This document shows positions 23,193 to 26,838 of a DNA stretch of 64,000 bases, piece by piece. The number at the start of each line of letters is the position of its first letter. Position 1 is the stretch's first letter. Location: sequence record OM386663.1. One strand, given 5' to 3'. The notes under the pieces were generated by a model that saw only the letters and a list, made by a program, of their open reading frames with translations, was not told the origin of the DNA and ran no database searches. A program made the translations under genes and the position numbers. Origin of the DNA: Escherichia phage vB_EcoM_ESCO49.

Positions 23193-23355
23193 GGAGAAAC
23201 CACAATGTACGTCAGAGACATACTGTATAAGTCTTCCTATAAAGTATAACTCTGTAAAAAAGCCCTGTCTAAAAATACTCTTCGGTAGCGAAAGGAAGAA
23301 TACTTATAGCAGGGCATTATTATTATTTTAATTGAGAGAGAGTAAAATAACTTGG

Positions 23356-23428
23356 AGAATCCGAAGGGACTTGAACCCTTATAAACCTGTTTTGCAGACA
23401 GGCACATATCCATTTCTGTCACGGATTC
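23356..23428 (-). tRNA. tRNA-Cys (GCA)
   Basis: acceptor 7 bp, T-arm AAGGG-TTCAAGT-CCCTT, anticodon stem CCTGT/ACAGG, loop CUGCAAA. Confidence 0.7.
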
Positions 23429-23436
23429 GAAATTGG

Positions 23437-23525
23437 GGGAAGATACCAGACTTGAACTGGTACACCGATTTCTCAGCTACTGGCAGTTTAGCAAACTGCT
23501 CCCTTACCTTTAGGGTTAATCTTCC
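23437..23525 (-). tRNA. tRNA-Ser (GCU), long variable arm
   Basis: 89 nt; T-arm, anticodon stem GCAGT/ACTGC, plus-strand loop TTAGCAA. Confidence 0.65.
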
Positions 23526-23526
23526 A

Positions 23527-24309
23527 TTATCTCTGTAATGCGCTCTTCATTTCTGGTGTTGCAATAGTATCAATCACACCAGTTTTACAAGCATCATCAA
23601 ACCAGTCTGGTAAGATACCTGCTAAGAACCCATTGATATTCGTTTTAAGGTACTCTGCAATAAGGGCAGCTTCTTCTTCAATCATCTGCACAACTTCATC
23701 TGCATAAGCTGTAATCTTTGAGATACCTTCATTAATCTTACTAACAGCCTGATTAGCTAAATCAGAAACAGTCTCAAGACCCTTATCAATAGCGTCTTGT
23801 AAGTCACTTAACACACCATTAACACTGTCTAGTGTGCTGTTAATCATGTCAATAGCTTGCTGACCATACTCTGTAGCAACACCCATAATACCACTAAATG
23901 GTGTACAACCAACTTGTTCTCCTGCTGCACCCATAACATTGGAGTATCCCTTTGCTACCTGCATACGTGATGAAAACTCATCAATAGACTTTTGACCGTA
24001 GTCTGTTAGGGTCTTAGTAGTTGCTGTAGTGCTTGTAAGGCTTGTTGTAAAGCTGTTTAGAAGGACTGTTGTGAGTCCAGCAGCAACAAGCTTCTCCTTC
24101 ATTGTAGGGTCTGTTACAGAGCTAATAGAGCTTACAAGTGATGTAGAGGCAGCTACGGTTCCACCGAGAACTGCTGCACCAGTAATAAGTGGGTTAGAAA
24201 ACCCTCTACCGGTTTTTAAGAGATTAAAAATCTCCTTACCTTGTTCTGTCATCTCTTTCATTAAGCACCTTTGAAATTGGTACTCCATATCGGATTCGAA
24301 CCGATACAT
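23527..24309 (-). CDS. hypothetical protein
   Basis: 260 aa; Ser/Thr/Ala-rich middle; embedded in tRNA region. Confidence 0.4.
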   Translation of the reverse strand: MYRFESDMEYQFQRCLMKEMTEQGKEIFNLLKTGRGFSNPLITGAAVLGGTVAASTSLVSSISSVTDPTMKEKLVAAGLTTVLLNSFTTSLTSTTATTKTLTDYGQKSIDEFSSRMQVAKGYSNVMGAAGEQVGCTPFSGIMGVATEYGQQAIDMINSTLDSVNGVLSDLQDAIDKGLETVSDLANQAVSKINEGISKITAYADEVVQMIEEEAALIAEYLKTNINGFLAGILPDWFDDACKTGVIDTIATPEMKSALQR

Positions 24310-24356
24310 AACACAGATTTTAAGTCTGGCCTCTCTGCCAATTGGAGTAATGGAGC
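24281..24356 (-). tRNA. tRNA, anticodon read as UAA (Leu-type), standard length
   Basis: acceptor GCUCCAU/AUGGAGU (G1-U72), T-arm ATCGG-TTCGAAT-CCGAT, 4 bp anticodon stem, loop CUUAAAA, A73. Confidence 0.5.
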
Positions 24357-24362
24357 ATTGGC

Positions 24363-24434
24363 TGGGGATGTTGGAATTGAACCAACTTCTTCGATTTCAA
24401 AGACCGAGGTTTTAACCTTGTAAACTAATCCCCT
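24363..24434 (-). tRNA. tRNA-Gln (UUG)
   Basis: T-loop TTCAATT; anticodon stem with one G-U; plus-strand loop TTCAAAG. Confidence 0.6.
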
Positions 24435-24442
24435 TTAAATCT

Positions 24443-25000
24443 TTACTTTCTCAGTGGATGAATAAAGAATGCCAACATAACTCTTTCCCTTGAGAATGCT
24501 CTTTCTTCTGGGACAACACTTTTTAGTTTCCATCCAATATAAATTCTCCAGTAAAACTGTTTACCAAAGATTTTAATTGATGGGATAAAAGCGAATAATC
24601 CCCAAGCATTGCTATTCCACATTAGGAGATAACCAGTCTGATTATCTTCAGGGTCAGAACTTACGCTGATATTACCTTTCCACTTAGTAACATCTTTTAC
24701 ATCTCTTCCTAATACATGGTAAGAGAAGTTATAAGCTTTGTTTCTCCAGAGCCATCCAACTCTCTGCATGTAGACACCCAGCTTACCAATCTTTCTAATC
24801 TTAGCCCATCTTTTAACGTGGCCTTCATCACCATCAATCGGGTTGTCATAGGTCTCCATCCATCTGAATCCAAAAGGTAGATGCCCTTTCTTCTCACTGT
24901 AGAATGGAACCACGAAAGGTGCTAAGATGACTGCTAGGGTTGCTGCAAATGGTTCTAGTAAAGCTAGGAAAATCCATGAAGCATACTTCAAATATCTCAT
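24443..25000 (-). CDS. hypothetical membrane protein
   Basis: 185 aa; hydrophobic N-terminus; between tRNA genes. Confidence 0.4.
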   Translation of the reverse strand: MRYLKYASWIFLALLEPFAATLAVILAPFVVPFYSEKKGHLPFGFRWMETYDNPIDGDEGHVKRWAKIRKIGKLGVYMQRVGWLWRNKAYNFSYHVLGRDVKDVTKWKGNISVSSDPEDNQTGYLLMWNSNAWGLFAFIPSIKIFGKQFYWRIYIGWKLKSVVPEERAFSRERVMLAFFIHPLRK

Positions 25001-25022
25001 CTAAATAGCCTCTTAAAATTGG

Positions 25023-25098
25023 TGTTCCAAGACGGATTCGAACCGTCACTAATACAAGGTTTGAGCTTGCATCCTCTGCCAATTGGGATACTGGAACA
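25023..25098 (-). tRNA. tRNA, anticodon read as CAA (Leu-type), standard length
   Basis: T-arm GACGG-TTCGAAT-CCGTC perfect; acceptor 7 bp with one G-U; loop CUCAAAC; A73. Confidence 0.5.
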
Positions 25099-25101
25099 TG
25101 G

Positions 25102-25173
25102 TACTCACTAAAGGACTTGAACCTTTTTCTTCATCTTGTAAGGGTGATGTTTTACCATATAAACTAAGCGAGT
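25102..25173 (-). tRNA. tRNA-Val (UAC), tentative
   Basis: T-arm AAAGG-TTCAAGT-CCTTT; D-arm GUUU-AUAUGGUA-AAAC; anticodon stem with one mismatch; plus loop TTGTAAG. Confidence 0.5.
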
Positions 25174-25271
25174 GTGAAAGAGGTCTGAAGTTGTGCCGCT
25201 AACTCAACTCCGTGGAATTTGTTACGGTCTTCAGTTGACACCAGCGGTCTTTCACTTGACCTCTGAATTGG

Positions 25272-25345
25272 TGCTGCTCACAGGACTCGAACCTGCATTT
25301 CCATCCTTACAAGGGATGTGTAATAGCCAATTATACGAAAGCAGC
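25272..25345 (-). tRNA. tRNA-Thr (UGU)
   Basis: perfect anticodon stem CATCC/GGATG, loop CUUGUAA; T-arm and acceptor present. Confidence 0.7.
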
Positions 25346-25354
25346 ATTATTTGG

Positions 25355-25426
25355 AGCATCCAGAGGGAATCGAACCCTCAACCTCAGTTTGGAAGACTGT
25401 AATTTTCCCGTTTAAACTATGGATGC
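25355..25426 (-). tRNA. tRNA-Gly (UCC)
   Basis: T-arm GAGGG-TTCGATT-CCCTC; acceptor perfect; loop CUUCCAA. Confidence 0.6.
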
Positions 25427-25435
25427 ACTAATTGG

Positions 25436-25508
25436 TGGAGAAGCAGGGAATTGAACCCTGTACTTAAGTTTGCAAAACTTATGTTTTAACCATGTAAACT
25501 ACATCCCC
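25436..25508 (-). tRNA. tRNA-Ala (UGC)
   Basis: anticodon stem TAAGT/ACTTA, loop UUUGCAA; acceptor GGGGAUG with G3-U70. Confidence 0.6.
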
Positions 25509-25517
25509 AATGTTTGG

Positions 25518-25590
25518 TACAGGTGGAGGGAATTGAACCCATCGTCTTACTGATTAAGAGTCAGCCGCATAACCATTTTGCTACACCTGC
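25518..25590 (-). tRNA. tRNA-Lys (CUU)
   Basis: plus loop TTAAGAG; acceptor 7 bp; T-loop TTCAATT with short GGG/CCC stem. Confidence 0.55.
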
Positions 25591-25600
25591 ATTAATTTGG

Positions 25601-25674
25601 TACACCTAGAGAGATTCGAACTCACACTGAGCAGATTCTAAGTCTGCTGCCTCTACCAGTTGGGCTATAGGTGC
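25601..25674 (-). tRNA. tRNA, anticodon read as UAG (Leu-type), standard length
   Basis: perfect anticodon stem GCAGA/TCTGC, loop CUUAGAA; acceptor 7 bp (G1-U72); D-loop with GG; A73; 5 nt variable loop. Confidence 0.55.
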
Positions 25675-25750
25675 ATTAAACCTTTTTAGAGAACTTCTAA
25701 GAACCTAAGCAACAAGGTTCCACAACAAGCCGTAATAACCTTAGAAGCCC

Positions 25751-25773
25751 TCTAAAAAGACCTAAAAAGGTCT
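25751..25773 (-). terminator. weak terminator-like hairpin (AGACC-n6-GGTCT plus U-run)
   Basis: 5 bp stem followed by UUUUAG on minus RNA. Confidence 0.3.
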
Positions 25774-25930
25774 TTGCATAGTCTTGTTTAATCCGGTGAC
25801 TAGAACCTTTGGAGAGCTTGATATTATCTCTTCTCCGTGACACCTGCTAGGTGCTTTATGAGTGTGTACGACAATACACGCGGGATACCAAAGCAACACC
25901 CTAATGAAGCTTGGCTTTAAATCTTATTAG

Positions 25931-26018
25931 GCGGTAAGTAAAGGAGTCGAACCCTCACCGTATCTCTACAGTGGCAACTGTTTTCAAGACAGTTTGGCTA
26001 CCATTAGCCGCTACCTAC
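25931..26018 (-). tRNA. tRNA-Ser (UGA), long variable arm
   Basis: 88 nt; anticodon stem AACTGT/ACAGTT 6 bp, plus loop TTTCAAG; acceptor 7 bp incl. one G-U. Confidence 0.55.
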
Positions 26019-26034
26019 CCCTAATAAGACTTTG

Positions 26035-26114
26035 GCATGGGACGGAGGAGTTGAACCCCTTTGAAACGGTGTTGGAAGCCGTTGCTCATGCCTTAGAGTC
26101 TTAACATCGTCCCA
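26035..26114 (-). tRNA. tRNA-like gene, identity unresolved (aberrant core)
   Basis: perfect 7 bp acceptor ATGGGAC/GTCCCAT, encoded CCA, T-loop TTCAACT; internal stem AACGG/CCGTT with 9 nt loop CUUCCAACA; extra nucleotides before D-arm. Confidence 0.4.
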
Positions 26115-26261
26115 TACTATAATTCGAAGCTTACCGTATTATCTCAACACTGTAAAGCCCCTTCTCAGATTATTTACATGTTCTGGAAAACATGAGATAC
26201 AGACCACCTCCCTACAGGAAGACCCGCTTAGGTCGTCTAAGTAATCTGCTAACTAAATTGG

Positions 26262-26340
26262 TCGAGGCGGCAGGACTCGAACCCGCATACTCCACTTACT
26301 CGGTTAACGTCTGTTTAGAAGACAGATGAGATACGCCCCG
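26262..26340 (-). tRNA. tRNA-like gene, identity unresolved (anticodon-like loop CUUCUAA, Arg-UCU-like, displaced)
   Basis: acceptor CGGGGCG/CGCCUCG all paired, T-arm GCAGG-TTCGAGT-CCCGC; perfect TCTGT/ACAGA hairpin sits where D-arm is expected. Confidence 0.35.
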
Positions 26341-26680
26341 TAATTATCTTTAAAGACTCTCTTAGAAAGCCCTTAAAGATGCCCACCTTATTAATCATAC
26401 CGTGGGCTAGTACGCCAAATTCTTTGATGAGGGATTGGAAGACCTCACTGGTGTTTAGCCTATCAAGCTACTGCCAGAAAAACATTGTCGTTTGCATTTA
26501 TTTTAAATTTGCAAAATAGACGCTACGCAACGAAAACTATTCAGAATATGTACAACAAATTTCCCCACATTGTGTTACGTCTAACGCTCATGTATTGGTG
26601 TTTGAATTATACATATTATGAAGTATTTTAGTTACTATAAAGTGGTCACATCTCAATGTCAACAACTTTATTGAAATTGG

Positions 26681-26753
26681 TACTGGTAGGTGGAATCGAA
26701 CCACCGACGTTCCCTTATCAGGGGAGTGTTATAACCTTCTTAACTATACCAGC
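26681..26753 (-). tRNA. tRNA-Ile (GAU)
   Basis: T-arm GGTGG-TTCGATT-CCACC perfect; plus loop TTATCAG. Confidence 0.6.
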
Positions 26754-26757
26754 TTGG

Positions 26758-26831
26758 AGGTTCAGATGGGAATCGAACCCACATTCATAGGGCTTATGAG
26801 ACCCTTGCATTACCTTATCTGCGACTGAACC
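26758..26831 (-). tRNA. tRNA with CAU anticodon (Met or Ile2)
   Basis: perfect acceptor GGTTCAG/CTGAACC; plus loop TTATGAG. Confidence 0.55.
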
Positions 26832-26838
26832 ATTTTGG

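What the first reader, a model, noticed from the sequence alone, without database searches (positions are those of the whole stretch)
26035..26340. Two tRNA-like genes with intact acceptor/T-arm but aberrant cores
Gene at 26035-26114 has a perfect 7 bp acceptor stem, encoded CCA and a canonical T-arm, but its internal hairpin has a 9 nt loop (CUUCCAACA) and about 8 extra nucleotides precede the D-arm. Gene at 26262-26340 has a fully paired acceptor and T-arm, but a perfect anticodon-like hairpin (loop CUUCUAA) sits where the D-arm should be, leaving no room for a D-arm. These could be pseudo-tRNAs, tRNA-derived regulatory RNAs or tRNA mimics.
Basis: seen in the sequence. Interest (0 to 1): 0.45.

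Follow-up and report, generated by a model that had tools for sequence, protein, structure and literature searches.

The report
Two conserved phage tRNAs with non-standard cores
Two odd-looking tRNA genes in a Felix O1-like phage are not decayed copies. They are conserved, structurally unusual arginine and tryptophan tRNAs, and the arginine one belongs to a widespread phage family whose core is wired differently from the textbook cloverleaf.

Summary
Both objects exist as described, on the minus strand of a Felix O1-like phage tRNA cluster.

Element B (26340→26259) belongs to a family of at least 57 distinct sequences found in very different phages. Acceptor, anticodon and T helices covary strongly. 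There is no D hairpin. Instead a 3-bp helix (CUC 26330-26328 with GAG 26301-26299) encloses the anticodon arm and is followed by a D-loop-like strand (UAAnnGGA). This helix uses ten pair combinations and is paired in all 57 sequences. Every anticodon is arginine (UCU, CCU, UCG, ACG). In Felix-like genomes B and a canonical tRNA-Arg(UCU) occupy the same slot and never co-occur (13 versus 16 loci). AGA is 42% of the phage's Arg codons.

Element A (26115→26033) is an Ounavirinae-wide tRNA-Trp(CCA)-like gene. It has A1-U72, G73, an encoded CCA, a covarying cloverleaf, an invariant 10-nt connector where normal tRNAs have 2 nt, and a conserved 9-nt anticodon loop.

The most likely reading is two functional, non-canonical decoding tRNAs. 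Charging and expression are untested. I found no prior description.

Just upstream lies an unannotated tmRNA-like tag element (ANDNVFLAVA*) that is shared by many unrelated phages and deserves its own study.

The parts
26259..26340 (-). Element B: non-canonical tRNA-Arg(UCU) gene, 82 nt including the encoded CCA
   Evidence: Rfam RF00005 33.4 bits. Family of 57 distinct sequences. Covariation. Slot equivalence with canonical tRNA-Arg(tct).
26334..26340 (-). B acceptor 5' strand CGGGGCG, pairs with 26263-26269
   Evidence: All seven pairs show double-sided changes across the family; 99.1% of cells paired.
26328..26333 (-). B 5' connector UAU (26333-26331) plus the CUC strand (26330-26328) of the long-range D-stem-like helix
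   Evidence: CUC pairs with GAG at 26299-26301. Ten pair combinations, 57 of 57 sequences paired. 100% paired, 18 double-sided cells, 0 of 500 shuffles reach the pairing or covariation score.
26310..26326 (-). B anticodon arm UCUGU-CUUCUAA-ACAGA; anticodon UCU at 26319-26317
   Evidence: All five pairs covary and 100% are paired. Anticodons in the family: UCU 52, CCU 2, UCG 2, ACG 1.
26302..26309 (-). B 8-nt linker CGUUAACC between the anticodon stem and the GAG strand (always 8 nt; family consensus C-N-U-Y-A-A-N-N)
   Evidence: Length is constant in 57 of 57 sequences. U34, A36 and A37 are invariant in alignment A5. No pairing partner found.
26287..26301 (-). B GAG strand (26301-26299) followed by the D-loop-like strand UAAGUGGAGUAU (26298-26287)
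   Evidence: Helix support. The GGA is invariant, and the strand resembles the D loop AAUUGGAUA of the canonical tRNA-Arg in a relative. RNAalifold's alternative local hairpin is rejected.
26259..26286 (-). B T arm GCGGG-UUCGAGU-CCUGC, acceptor 3' strand CGCCUCG, A73, CCA
   Evidence: T stem covaries and 99.4% of cells are paired. N73 is A or G in 52 of 57 sequences and CCA is encoded in 35 of 57.
26033..26115 (-). Element A: non-canonical tRNA-Trp(CCA)-like gene, 83 nt including the encoded CCA
   Evidence: 235 phage records; those examined are Ounavirinae. Cloverleaf 97.6% paired, 23 double-sided cells, 0 of 500 shuffles reach it. The slot holds a different tRNA-Trp(cca) in L028 and L044.
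26099..26108 (-). A invariant 10-nt connector GAUGUUAAGA between the acceptor and the D stem (normal tRNAs have 2 nt)
   Evidence: GAUGUUAAG is invariant in all 11 divergent sequences, including the Pectobacterium phages.
26085..26098 (-). A D arm: CUC-UAAGGCAU-GAG
   Evidence: The middle pair covaries (U-A in 4 sequences, A-U in 7) and the third pair varies C-G to U-G.
26065..26083 (-). A anticodon arm AACGG-CUUCCAACA-CCGUU; anticodon CCA at 26075-26073; 9-nt loop
   Evidence: Four of five stem pairs covary. The loop-flanking positions are C.A or C.C in 11 of 11 sequences and never pair.
26033..26064 (-). A variable loop UCAAA, T arm GGGG-UUCAACU-CCUC, acceptor 3' strand GUCCCAU, G73, CCA
   Evidence: One T-stem pair covaries (G-C to U-A). 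G73 and CCA are conserved in all sequences.

Best explanation
Both elements are functional phage tRNA genes with non-standard cores. They are not pseudogenes.

Element B is the phage's tRNA-Arg(UCU). Its chain order differs from the cloverleaf:
- acceptor 5' strand;
- U-A-U;
- a 3-nt strand (CUC) that runs through one A straight into the anticodon stem;
- the anticodon arm;
- an 8-nt linker;
- the complementary 3-nt strand (GAG);
- a single-stranded D-loop-like segment (U-A-A-n-n-G-G-A-G-U-A-U);
- a normal T arm and the acceptor 3' strand.

Shown: the four helices and their covariation, the restriction to Arg anticodons, the mutually exclusive slot, and the phage's heavy use of AGA.

Inferred:
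- The CUC/GAG helix plays the part of the D stem, stacked on the anticodon stem. CUC stands in for positions 23-25 and GAG for positions 10-12.
- The GGA that follows supplies G18, G19 (contacts with the T loop at the elbow of the L) and A20 (the main ArgRS determinant). The molecule would then still fold into an L shape, be charged by host ArgRS and read AGA/AGG on host ribosomes.

Element A is the phage's tRNA-Trp(CCA). It is a four-arm cloverleaf carrying the E. coli Trp identity set (CCA anticodon, G73, A1-U72, G5-C68). It has an invariant 8-nt excess in the connector before the D stem. Its anticodon helix is shifted by one pair: the pair at the core-proximal end always forms and the loop-closing pair never does, so the loop is formally 9 nt. 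I infer that it is charged by TrpRS and reads UGG. What the insert and the open loop do is unknown.
For: Detection and anatomy.

B family:
- The same architecture occurs in a T5-like Klebsiella phage with a fully compensated anticodon stem.
- 37, then 57, distinct sequences came from three independent anchor patterns.
- BLAST finds it in Felixounavirus, T5-like, rV5-like/Justusliebigvirus, 121Q-like jumbo and other phages, 262 records in all.
- Classical helices: 99.5% of cells paired, 171 double-sided cells, 0 of 500 shuffles reach it, slid registers fall to 34-47%.
- Long-range helix: 100% paired, ten pair combinations, 0 of 500 shuffles reach the pairing or covariation score, slid registers fall to 10-40%. 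The competing local hairpin is no better than shuffled.
- Anticodons are UCU, CCU, UCG and ACG only.
- Slot test: 13 loci have B only, 16 have the canonical tRNA-Arg(tct) only, none have both or neither.
- In 81 B-bearing loci only one also has a canonical tRNA-Arg with the same anticodon; other canonical Arg genes there carry different anticodons.
- C35, U/G36, A/G73 and an invariant GGA match the bacterial Arg identity set of A20, C35, U/G36, A/G73 (PMC9976931).
- AGA is 41.9% and AGG 10.9% of Arg codons in the window's long ORFs, and ARAGORN finds no other Arg tRNA in the window.
- Only 4 hits among 185,579 species genomes, all on short MAG contigs, three of them with tRNA genes close by.

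A:
- 235 records, and none of the 40 listed rows annotates a tRNA at the match.
- Covariation in the D, anticodon and T stems.
- Its slot holds another tRNA-Trp(cca) in L028 and L044.
- Trp identity elements.
Against: - There are no expression, end-mapping, modification or aminoacylation data.
- The match of GGA to G18-G19-A20, and of CUC/GAG to the D stem, is by analogy only. No 3D model was possible.
- Single-sequence folding energies are unremarkable (z = -1.56 for A and 0.04 for B).
- Parts of the 'invariant' blocks were fixed by my search patterns: UAUCUCA and the anticodon loop, the 3' block, GGAGUAUG and GGUUCGA, and UAU and UAA in the parser. Each block was nevertheless free in at least one scan and stayed conserved.
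- A's T stem has only 4 pairs plus an A.C, and one lineage has a U.U there.
- Whether EF-Tu, RNase P and the ribosome accept the B fold is unknown.
- The literature search covers open-access papers only.
Confidence: 0.72

Rival explanations
1. Non-decoding tRNA mimics. The RNAs keep the features seen by tRNA-binding proteins (synthetase, a tRNA-cleaving toxin, or modification enzymes) but act as decoys or sponges, for example against a host nuclease that targets tRNA-Arg, or as regulators. They would not deliver amino acids to the ribosome.
For: The core differs from every tRNA the host ribosome normally uses. A decoy for an anticodon-loop nuclease would also keep Arg-type anticodon loops. Phage tRNAs that counter tRNA-targeting defences have been described (title and abstract of PMC10264068).
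Against: B and a canonical tRNA-Arg(UCU) exclude each other in the same slot, and every one of 29 Felix-like loci has exactly one of them. That is what a functional substitute predicts; a decoy could coexist with the real tRNA. The phage depends heavily on AGA. The acceptor stem, discriminator and often CCA are kept, which a loop decoy would not need.
Confidence: 0.15
2. Decaying pseudo-tRNAs: remnants of tRNA-Arg and tRNA-Trp genes damaged by deletions or insertions and drifting. This is how tRNAscan-SE-based genome papers have labelled such genes.
For: ARAGORN does not call either gene. One Felix-like genome paper lists three 'pseudo-tRNA' genes (PMC4837284). Folding energies are no better than shuffled sequences.
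Against: The same odd architecture is preserved in 57 distinct B sequences and across the Ounavirinae examined for A, with many compensatory changes in every helix. The non-helical blocks are invariant, and the anticodons stay within one amino acid. Drift would destroy these features.
Confidence: 0.03
3. Element B is the tRNA-like domain of a phage tmRNA whose tag-coding part lies just upstream (tag frame at 26495-26466).
For: The window copy has a G3:U70 pair, A73 and CCA. A tmRNA-like tag element lies 125 nt upstream on the same strand, behind a strong promoter-like site.
Against: G3:U70 is not conserved in the B family; position 3:70 is G-C in 16, G-U in 7, C-G in 4, A-U in 3 and U-A in 2 sequences. 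B has a conserved Arg anticodon arm. B occurs without the tag element in T5-like, rV5-like and jumbo phages. The tag element occurs with a canonical tRNA-Arg, or with no B at all, in other phages.
Confidence: 0.03
4. Element A is a recoding tRNA. Its open 9-nt anticodon loop and altered D-arm region let a Trp-charged tRNA read UGA stops or shift the reading frame at specific phage genes.
For: The 9-nt loop and the D-region insert are conserved. Structural changes outside the anticodon are reported to let tRNA-Trp(CCA) read UGA, namely 4-bp anticodon stems (PMC13092985). Seven of 42 long ORFs in the window end in TGA.
Against: The published cases unpair the top pair of the stem (27:43), not the loop-proximal pair as here. 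No candidate readthrough or frameshift gene was identified. The C.A flank could form a non-Watson-Crick pair that restores a 7-nt loop.
Confidence: 0.1

Closest known systems
Canonical phage tRNA-Arg(UCU), for example the 77-nt gene in the same slot of Escherichia phage pEP20 (L004 841-917)
   Same: Same genomic slot, same anticodon loop CUUCUAA, a normal T arm, a 7-bp acceptor stem, encoded CCA, and a D-loop sequence AAUUGGA.
   Different: The canonical gene has a D hairpin between the acceptor and the anticodon arm and a 5-nt variable loop. B has no D hairpin. Its two D-stem-like strands flank the anticodon arm, and its D-loop-like strand lies between that helix and the T arm.
D-arm-lacking mitochondrial tRNA-Ser(AGY/AGN) of animals (PMC4013460, PMC7609411)
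   Same: A tRNA that works without a D hairpin. From my own knowledge, the proposed models extend the anticodon helix and replace the D arm with a short connector.
   Different: Those tRNAs are organellar, and their partner proteins are adapted to them. B is carried by phages of bacteria and keeps a full T loop, a GG-containing D-loop-like strand and a specific long-range helix. There is no sequence relationship, and homology was not tested.
Permuted and split tRNA genes of archaea and algae (PMC3218864)
   Same: The order of tRNA segments along the gene departs from the standard order.
   Different: In those cases processing restores a normal cloverleaf tRNA. In B the rearrangement lies inside a contiguous 82-nt gene with ordinary 5' and 3' acceptor ends, so the mature RNA itself would have the altered topology.
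E. coli tRNA-Trp(CCA) and its UGA-reading variants (the Hirsh D-arm suppressor; 4-bp anticodon-stem tRNA-Trp, PMC13092985)
   Same: Element A has the CCA anticodon, G73, A1-U72 and G5-C68. Most relatives have the loop CUCCAAA, which from my own knowledge is the E. coli tRNA-Trp loop.
   Different: A has 8 extra nucleotides before a 3-bp D stem and a loop-closing position that never pairs. The published UGA readers change D-stem pair 11:24 or unpair 27:43.
tmRNA tRNA-like domain and CDS-less mini-tmRNA of mycobacteriophage DS6A (PMC11915505)
   Same: A phage-borne tRNA-like RNA lacking a D arm. The window copy of B has G3:U70.
   Different: The B family has a conserved Arg anticodon arm, and G3:U70 is not conserved. 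B is not a member.

Membership tests
Standard elongator tRNA (Rfam RF00005 / cloverleaf) | 7-bp acceptor stem, discriminator base and a 3' CCA (encoded or added) | tested here: met
   B: 7 bp, A73, CCA. A: 7 bp (8 possible), G73, CCA. Covariation.
Standard elongator tRNA (Rfam RF00005 / cloverleaf) | T arm: 5-bp stem with a 7-nt UUCRANY loop | tested here: met
   B: GCGGG-UUCGAGU-CCUGC, which covaries. A: 4 pairs plus an A.C, loop UUCAACU, so slightly substandard.
Standard elongator tRNA (Rfam RF00005 / cloverleaf) | D hairpin (stem 10-13/22-25 closing the D loop) placed 2 nt after the acceptor stem | tested here: not met
   B has no D hairpin; its helix strands lie on either side of the anticodon arm. 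A has a 3-bp D hairpin, but it starts 10 nt, not 2 nt, after the acceptor stem.
Standard elongator tRNA (Rfam RF00005 / cloverleaf) | Anticodon arm: 5-bp stem with a 7-nt loop | tested here: inconclusive
   B meets it. A has a 5-bp stem with a 9-nt loop whose flanks are C.A or C.C in all sequences. A non-Watson-Crick closing pair cannot be excluded.
Standard elongator tRNA (Rfam RF00005 / cloverleaf) | Recognition by tRNA gene finders | tested here: inconclusive
   B: Rfam 33.4 bits against a gathering score of 29, ARAGORN negative. A: no Rfam tRNA hit at E<=10 and ARAGORN negative.
Bacterial tRNA-Arg (ArgRS identity set, PMC9976931) | C35 and U/G36 in the anticodon; A/G73 | tested here: met
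   C35 in 57 of 57 sequences. Position 36 is U in 54 and G in 3. N73 is A or G in 52 of 57. Identity set.
Bacterial tRNA-Arg (ArgRS identity set, PMC9976931) | A20 in the D loop (the main determinant) | tested here: inconclusive
   An invariant GGA follows UAAnn, as G18-G19-A20 follow A14-R15-N16-N17 in a normal D loop. The equivalence is positional analogy and is not shown structurally.
Bacterial tRNA-Arg (ArgRS identity set, PMC9976931) | Aminoacylation with arginine | not testable with these tools
   Needs in vitro charging or in vivo charging assays.
E. coli-type tRNA-Trp (TrpRS identity set, PMC9976931) | CCA anticodon, G73, A1-U72, G5-C68 | tested here: met
   All are present in the window copy. 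G73 and CCA are present in all 11 aligned sequences. Pair 1:72 is A-U in 8 and G-U in 1, and the two Pectobacterium copies have a different, bulged acceptor end.
tmRNA tRNA-like domain | G3:U70 alanine identity pair conserved; no anticodon arm; linked to a tag-coding domain | tested here: not met
   G-U at 3:70 in only 7 of 32 sequences. A conserved Arg anticodon arm is present. B occurs without the tag element in other phage groups.
Pseudo-tRNA (decaying gene) | No selective maintenance: helices lose pairing, no compensatory change, anticodon drifts | tested here: not met
   99.5% of cells paired in B and 97.6% in A, with 171 and 23 double-sided changes. Anticodons are restricted to one amino acid.

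The most novel reading that the evidence does not exclude
The B-type genes define a phage-specific tRNA fold in which the D-stem strands and D loop are re-threaded around the anticodon arm. The molecule would still be charged by host ArgRS, delivered by EF-Tu and used by host ribosomes to read AGA/AGG. It would be the first natural non-cloverleaf elongator tRNA working in bacterial translation. The altered core might exist to escape host enzymes that recognise or cleave normal tRNA-Arg. Element A would be a second, independent departure, and the neighbouring orphan tmRNA-like tag element suggests that phages carry a broader, unannotated set of non-standard translation RNAs.
Probability: 0.4. 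Interest if true: 0.85.

Novelty: new variant of a known kind. Interest (0 to 1): 0.72.

Why it matters
[quoted passage not shown] A natural tRNA-Arg family with a differently threaded core, used by phages that rely on host synthetases, EF-Tu and ribosomes, would show that the bacterial translation machinery tolerates a second topology.

- **Structural biology.** It gives a ready-made natural test case.
- **Synthetic biology.** It offers a natural scaffold for orthogonal tRNAs.
- **Phage-host conflict.** It suggests a possible route by which phages evade tRNA-directed defences.
- **Annotation.** Hundreds of sequenced phage genomes, many of them therapeutic candidates from the Felix O1-like, rV5-like and T5-like groups, currently lack annotation for these genes or call them 'tRNA-OTHER', 'tRNA-Leu', pseudo-tRNA or hypothetical proteins. 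Their tRNA repertoires and codon-supply analyses are therefore incomplete.

Tried and rejected
- **B as a tmRNA tRNA-like domain.** Suggested by G3:U70 and the upstream tag. Rejected because the family does not keep G3:U70 and does keep an Arg anticodon arm.
- **RNAalifold's local hairpin in B's extra region** (columns 38-40 with 47-49). Rejected: 82.5% paired equals the shuffled mean, with no compensatory change.
- **A variable-arm hairpin UUAAU/AUUGG in B.** Considered by eye and dropped. The columns that vary (46-47) face invariant A36 and A37, and many variants cannot pair.
- **ARAGORN at relaxed thresholds.** It finds neither gene. At -ps80 it gives only a poor 'tRNA-Pyl(cta)' fold that overlaps part of A, which I treat as spurious.
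- **The shared GUUAA motif before the D-stem strand in A and B as a diagnostic module.** The same pentamer occurs inside ordinary D arms of tRNA-Gln, Ala and Ile in this cluster, so it is not diagnostic.
- **The published 4-bp anticodon-stem tRNA-Trp mechanism as an explanation for A.** That mechanism unpairs a different pair, 27:43.
- **The tag-like frame as an ordinary small ORF.** There is no in-frame start codon after the upstream stop. The alternative AUG/GUG frame would put the variable sites on codon position 2.
- **A full tmRNA around the tag.** No Rfam hit reaches the gathering score in any context. ARAGORN made no credible tmRNA call; its one call, in L039, spanned three tRNA genes and is spurious. 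No 5' acceptor strand lies upstream of the tag.
- **Literature searches** for phage D-arm-less tRNAs, Felix O1 tRNA-like genes and phage tmRNA-like elements found no description.
Full report
**Context.** The window is a Felix O1-like phage (Felixounavirus). An 801-nt query around the finding matches 265 phage records at 80-99% identity, mostly Escherichia and Salmonella phages of about 85-88 kb, and element A is 100% identical to Felix O1 itself. The finding lies in a minus-strand cluster of 19 ARAGORN-callable tRNA genes at 23353-27708, in the 660-nt gap between tRNA-Ile (26678-26753) and tRNA-Ser (25930-26019).

**Checking the observation.** Read on the minus strand, element B (26340→26259) is:
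- CGGGGCG (acceptor 5' strand);
- UAU, CUC, A;
- UCUGU-CUUCUAA-ACAGA (anticodon arm);
- CGUUAACC (linker);
- GAG;
- UAAGUGGAGUAU (D-loop-like strand);
- GCGGG-UUCGAGU-CCUGC (T arm);
- CGCCUCG (acceptor 3' strand), A, CCA.

Rfam's tRNA model scores it at 33.4 bits against a gathering score of 29. It gets there only by deleting the D arm (4 nt against 15 model positions) and inserting 20 nt after the anticodon arm. ARAGORN misses it at every threshold tried.

Element A (26115→26033) is:
- AUGGGAC (acceptor 5' strand);
- GAUGUUAAGA (connector);
- CUC-UAAGGCAU-GAG (D arm), then C;
- AACGG-CUUCCAACA-CCGUU (anticodon arm);
- UCAAA (variable loop);
- GGGG-UUCAACU-CCUC (T arm), then C;
- GUCCCAU (acceptor 3' strand), G, CCA.

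No tool calls it. The only correction is that A's acceptor register is one base off: A26115-U26037 gives G73 followed by CCA.

**Element B belongs to a large, conserved family.** A T5-like Klebsiella phage has the same layout with a fully compensated anticodon stem (UCUGU/ACAGA against ACGGG/CCCGU) and near-identical sequence elsewhere. A sister Felixounavirus has an ordinary 77-nt tRNA-Arg(tct) at the same place.

I ran three scans of IMG/VR, each anchored on a different part of the molecule so that every block was left free in at least one scan. They gave 57 distinct sequences that fit the layout. BLAST against GenBank phages finds 262 records: Felixounavirus, T5-like Klebsiella phages of about 110 kb, Justusliebigvirus and rV5-like phages of about 146 kb, 121Q-like jumbo phages of about 350 kb, KNP2- and Mydo-like phages, and weaker matches in Vibrio and Streptomyces phages. 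Annotation is almost always absent, and at best reads 'tRNA-OTHER'.

On 32 sequences the acceptor, anticodon and T helices are 99.5% paired with 171 double-sided changes. None of 500 shuffles reaches this, and sliding the partner by 1-3 columns drops pairing to 34-47%.

**The core of B is rewired, not missing.** I proposed that CUC in the 5' segment pairs with GAG after the anticodon arm. In the first 32 sequences both strands were invariant, so this could not be tested, and RNAalifold preferred a small local hairpin. The third scan brought in divergent members in which the two strands change together: CUC/GAG (36 sequences), CGC/GCG (8), CAC/GUG (3), CAG/CUG (3), CGU/ACG (2), and CGG/CCG, CUU/AAG, UCC/GGA, CAU/AUG and CCC/GGG (one each). 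All 57 sequences pair at 3 of 3 positions.

On the 38-sequence alignment A5 the helix is 100% paired with 18 double-sided cells. None of 500 shuffles reaches the observed pairing or covariation score, and slid registers fall to 10-40%. The local hairpin scores exactly its shuffled mean (82.5%) with no compensatory change, and I reject it.

The secondary structure is therefore a three-way junction. The acceptor stem closes a loop that contains two arms:
- a composite arm made of the 3-bp helix, an asymmetric internal loop (1 nt on one side, 8 nt on the other) and the anticodon stem-loop;
- the T arm.

The 11-12-nt strand U-A-A-n(-n)-G-G-A-G-U-A-U joins the two arms.

**Interpretation of that core (inference).** In a normal tRNA the D stem stacks on the anticodon stem. 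One continuous strand runs 22-25, 26, 27-31, and the other runs 39-43, 44, then 10-13. In B the 5' strand CUC-A runs straight into the anticodon stem, as 23-25 and 26 do. GAG follows the 3' strand of the anticodon stem, as 10-12 do, and is followed by U-A-A-n-n-G-G-A. That reads like N13-A14-R15-N16-N17-G18-G19-A20, and it matches the D loop AAUUGGAUA of the canonical tRNA-Arg in the sister phage. The two variable positions coincide with 16 and 17, which from my own knowledge are the most variable D-loop positions. The final U before the T stem sits where Y48 would pair with R15.

On this reading B is a tRNA whose segment 10-21 has moved from before the anticodon arm to after it. All the pieces needed for the L-shaped core are still present. 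I could not test this in three dimensions.

**B behaves as the phage's tRNA-Arg.**
- All anticodons in the family are arginine: UCU 52, CCU 2, UCG 2, ACG 1.
- C35 is invariant, position 36 is U or G, N73 is A or G in 52 of 57 sequences, and the GGA is invariant. This matches the bacterial arginine identity set of A20, C35, U/G36 and A/G73 (PMC9976931).
- In 29 Felix-like loci, 13 have B and no canonical tRNA-Arg in the slot, 16 have the canonical tRNA-Arg(tct) and no B, and none have both or neither.
- Across 81 B-bearing loci, other tRNA-Arg genes nearly always carry a different anticodon (mostly ACG). Only one locus has a canonical gene with the same anticodon. Three apparent further cases are ARAGORN folding the B gene itself as a 91-96-nt tRNA.
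- In the window's long ORFs AGA is 41.9% and AGG 10.9% of arginine codons, and ARAGORN finds no other tRNA-Arg in the 64 kb. From my own knowledge AGA and AGG are the rarest Arg codons in E. coli.
- The architecture is essentially confined to phages. A family-specific pattern hits 4 of 185,579 species genomes, all on short MAG contigs; two of them carry 14 and 7 tRNA genes within about 6 kb.

**Element A.** It occurs in 235 phage records, and none of the 40 listed rows annotates a tRNA at the match. The exact 5' insert occurs only on Felixounavirus-sized contigs, but divergent Ounavirinae keep it, including Mooglevirus, SUSP2-like phages and Pectobacterium phages Arno162 and Wc4-1.

On 11 divergent sequences the four-arm fold is 97.6% paired with 23 double-sided changes. 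None of 500 shuffles reaches this, and slid registers fall to 29-51%.
- Four of five anticodon-stem pairs covary.
- The D stem covaries (CUC/GAG, CAC/GUG, CAU/GUG).
- One T-stem pair covaries.
- The two positions flanking the 7-nt core of the loop are C.A or C.C in every sequence, while the pair at the top of the stem always forms (A-U, G-U or G-C). The 5-bp stem with a 9-nt loop is therefore a conserved trait.
- The connector GAUGUUAAG is invariant.

The gene carries the CCA anticodon, G73, A1-U72 (G1.U72 in one lineage) and G5-C68, which is the E. coli-type Trp identity set. In two Felix-like contigs the same slot holds a different 71-nt tRNA-Trp(cca). Most relatives have the loop core CUCCAAA. 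The window's subgroup has UUCCAAC, changed at positions 32 and 38. I conclude that A is the subfamily's tRNA-Trp. The roles of the insert and the open loop are unknown. A recoding role such as UGA reading is possible, but nothing found here supports it. The published 4-bp-stem mechanism unpairs a different pair.

**Comparison with what is known.** B works like a tRNA-Arg but fails a defining feature of the cloverleaf family, the D hairpin two nucleotides after the acceptor stem. The nearest structural analogue is the D-arm-lacking mitochondrial tRNA-Ser of animals, which is unrelated and works with adapted partners. Permuted and split archaeal or algal tRNA genes rearrange the gene but restore a normal tRNA.

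A recent paper states that all known bacterial tRNAs are cloverleaves (PMC11551756). In the search, the 2020 review of natural non-canonical tRNAs shows no occurrence of the word 'phage'. Genome papers have only flagged 'pseudo-tRNA' (PMC4837284). I found no description of either architecture, but only open-access text was searchable.

**A second finding beside the first.** Upstream of B on the same strand, behind an 11/12 sigma-70-type promoter match (26662→26634), lies a tmRNA-like tag element.
- An A-rich run precedes GCA-AAC-GAC-AAU-GUU-UUU-CUG-GCA-GUA-GCU-UGA-UAG, which reads ANDNVFLAVA** (26495→26460).
- A stop lies nine codons upstream in frame, with no start codon in between.
- Two Rfam tmRNA models align here below threshold.
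- BLAST-derived homologues occur in Kuttervirus Det7, a Jedunavirus, a lambdoid prophage (between the antitermination protein gene and the holin) and plasmids of about 110 kb (upstream of a tRNA cluster). The tags there are ANDNTFLAVA, ANDTEFLAVA, ANEEMYLAVA and ANEEVYLAVA. Outside codons 4-5 the differences are third-position changes or conservative replacements.
- The element is present in 291 of 5,426 complete E. coli genomes, and no listed hit has an annotated feature under the match.
- Aligned with E. coli ssrA it shares the resume-codon context and the first three codons.
- The stop codon sits in a hairpin loop, as I recall for tmRNA helix 5. Two downstream helices in the consensus fold carry compensatory changes. 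One of them pairs the loop of a GAGG/CCUC hairpin, which I identified by eye, with a downstream strand, which would make an H-type pseudoknot.

No 5' acceptor strand or recognisable tRNA-like partner was found, so it is not a standard tmRNA, and its mechanism is open. It is independent of B, because it occurs with either type of tRNA-Arg and B occurs without it.

**Verdict.** The pseudogene reading is rejected. The best explanation is two functional non-canonical tRNAs, and the Arg one represents a widespread, apparently undescribed, phage-specific tRNA topology supported by strong covariation. Expression, charging and the three-dimensional fold remain to be shown.

Noticed in passing
window 26375-26545 (minus strand); tag frame 26495->26466, stops 26465->26460: An unannotated tmRNA-like 'orphan' tag element. 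An A-rich run precedes a GCA resume-like codon and the frame ANDNVFLAVA**. There is no in-frame start codon, the stop sits in a hairpin loop, and downstream helices covary, consistent with a pseudoknot. It is shared with Kuttervirus, Jedunavirus, lambdoid prophages and plasmids of about 110 kb (tags ANDNTFLAVA, ANDTEFLAVA, ANEEMYLAVA, ANEEVYLAVA). It is present in 291 of 5,426 E. coli genomes. Only sub-threshold tmRNA hits were found, and no tRNA-like partner.
   Followed up: partly
window 26634-26662 (minus strand): A near-consensus sigma-70-type promoter match, TTGACA-17-TATAGT (11 of 12), about 130 nt upstream of the tag frame. It would drive transcription of the tag element and the tRNA genes downstream.
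   Followed up: no
window 26532-26613 (minus strand): The segment between the promoter and the tag element matches unrelated phages of about 52 kb (Escherichia phage flopper, Yersinia phage PYps3T) at 82-85% identity. No feature is annotated at the match in either record. Its nature is unknown.
   Followed up: no
L137 2722-2815 (E. coli lambdoid prophage) and L002 1833-1955 (Klebsiella Jedunavirus): Downstream of the tag element in these phages lies a self-contained tRNA-like end. It has the acceptor UGUGGUG/CACCACA, a 5-bp stem GCCGG/CCGGC with a 9-nt T-like loop, then G (L137) or A (L002). CCA follows only in L137. About 60-95 nt of insert separate the acceptor 5' strand from the T arm, and there is no G3:U70 pair. 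No tool calls it.
   Followed up: partly
L001 800-2230 (Salmonella phage Det7): The tag element sits in a gap of about 1.4 kb with no annotation. About 190 nt upstream of the tag the gap also contains a tRNA-like piece, GGUGAGG...GUGUGG-UUCGAUU-CCACAC-CCUCGCC-A. A related Kuttervirus-like contig (L031) has an Rfam STnc100 hit just above the gathering score, 48.7 against 47.
   Followed up: no
window 26020-26680 and homologous gaps in relatives: In several relatives (phages mio, Felix O1, bumzen, warpig, JN01) an HNH endonuclease gene is inserted in this same tRNA-Ile to tRNA-Ser gap, splitting the BLAST match into pieces. The gap seems to be a hot spot for homing-endonuclease insertion, and perhaps for swapping of tRNA alleles.
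   Followed up: no
window 26070-26078 (minus strand): The window's subgroup has the element A anticodon loop core UUCCAAC where most Felix-like relatives have CUCCAAA. This is a paired change at positions 32 and 38 that leaves the anticodon intact.
   Followed up: partly
window 23527-24309 and 24443-25000 (minus strand): Two ORFs of 260 and 185 aa lie inside the tRNA cluster between tRNA genes. They were not examined. Homing endonucleases are a natural guess given the HNH insertions seen in relatives.
   Followed up: no
phage records MG065664.1 (Campylobacter phage A132), MG065645.1 (Campylobacter phage A145) and OK283618.1 (Listeria phage LPML1): These records match element B at 85-100% identity, and their sizes are typical of Felix-like or rV5-like coliphages. 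The host labels look doubtful, perhaps from mislabelled or contaminated records, so host range inferred from record names should be treated with caution.
   Followed up: no
window 25930-26019 (minus strand): The ordinary long-arm tRNA-Ser(UGA) next to element A scores higher against the selenocysteine tRNA model (39 bits, below its gathering score of 47) than against the general tRNA model (33.2 bits). This is probably just an effect of its long variable arm. The anticodon is UGA (Ser), not UCA.
   Followed up: no
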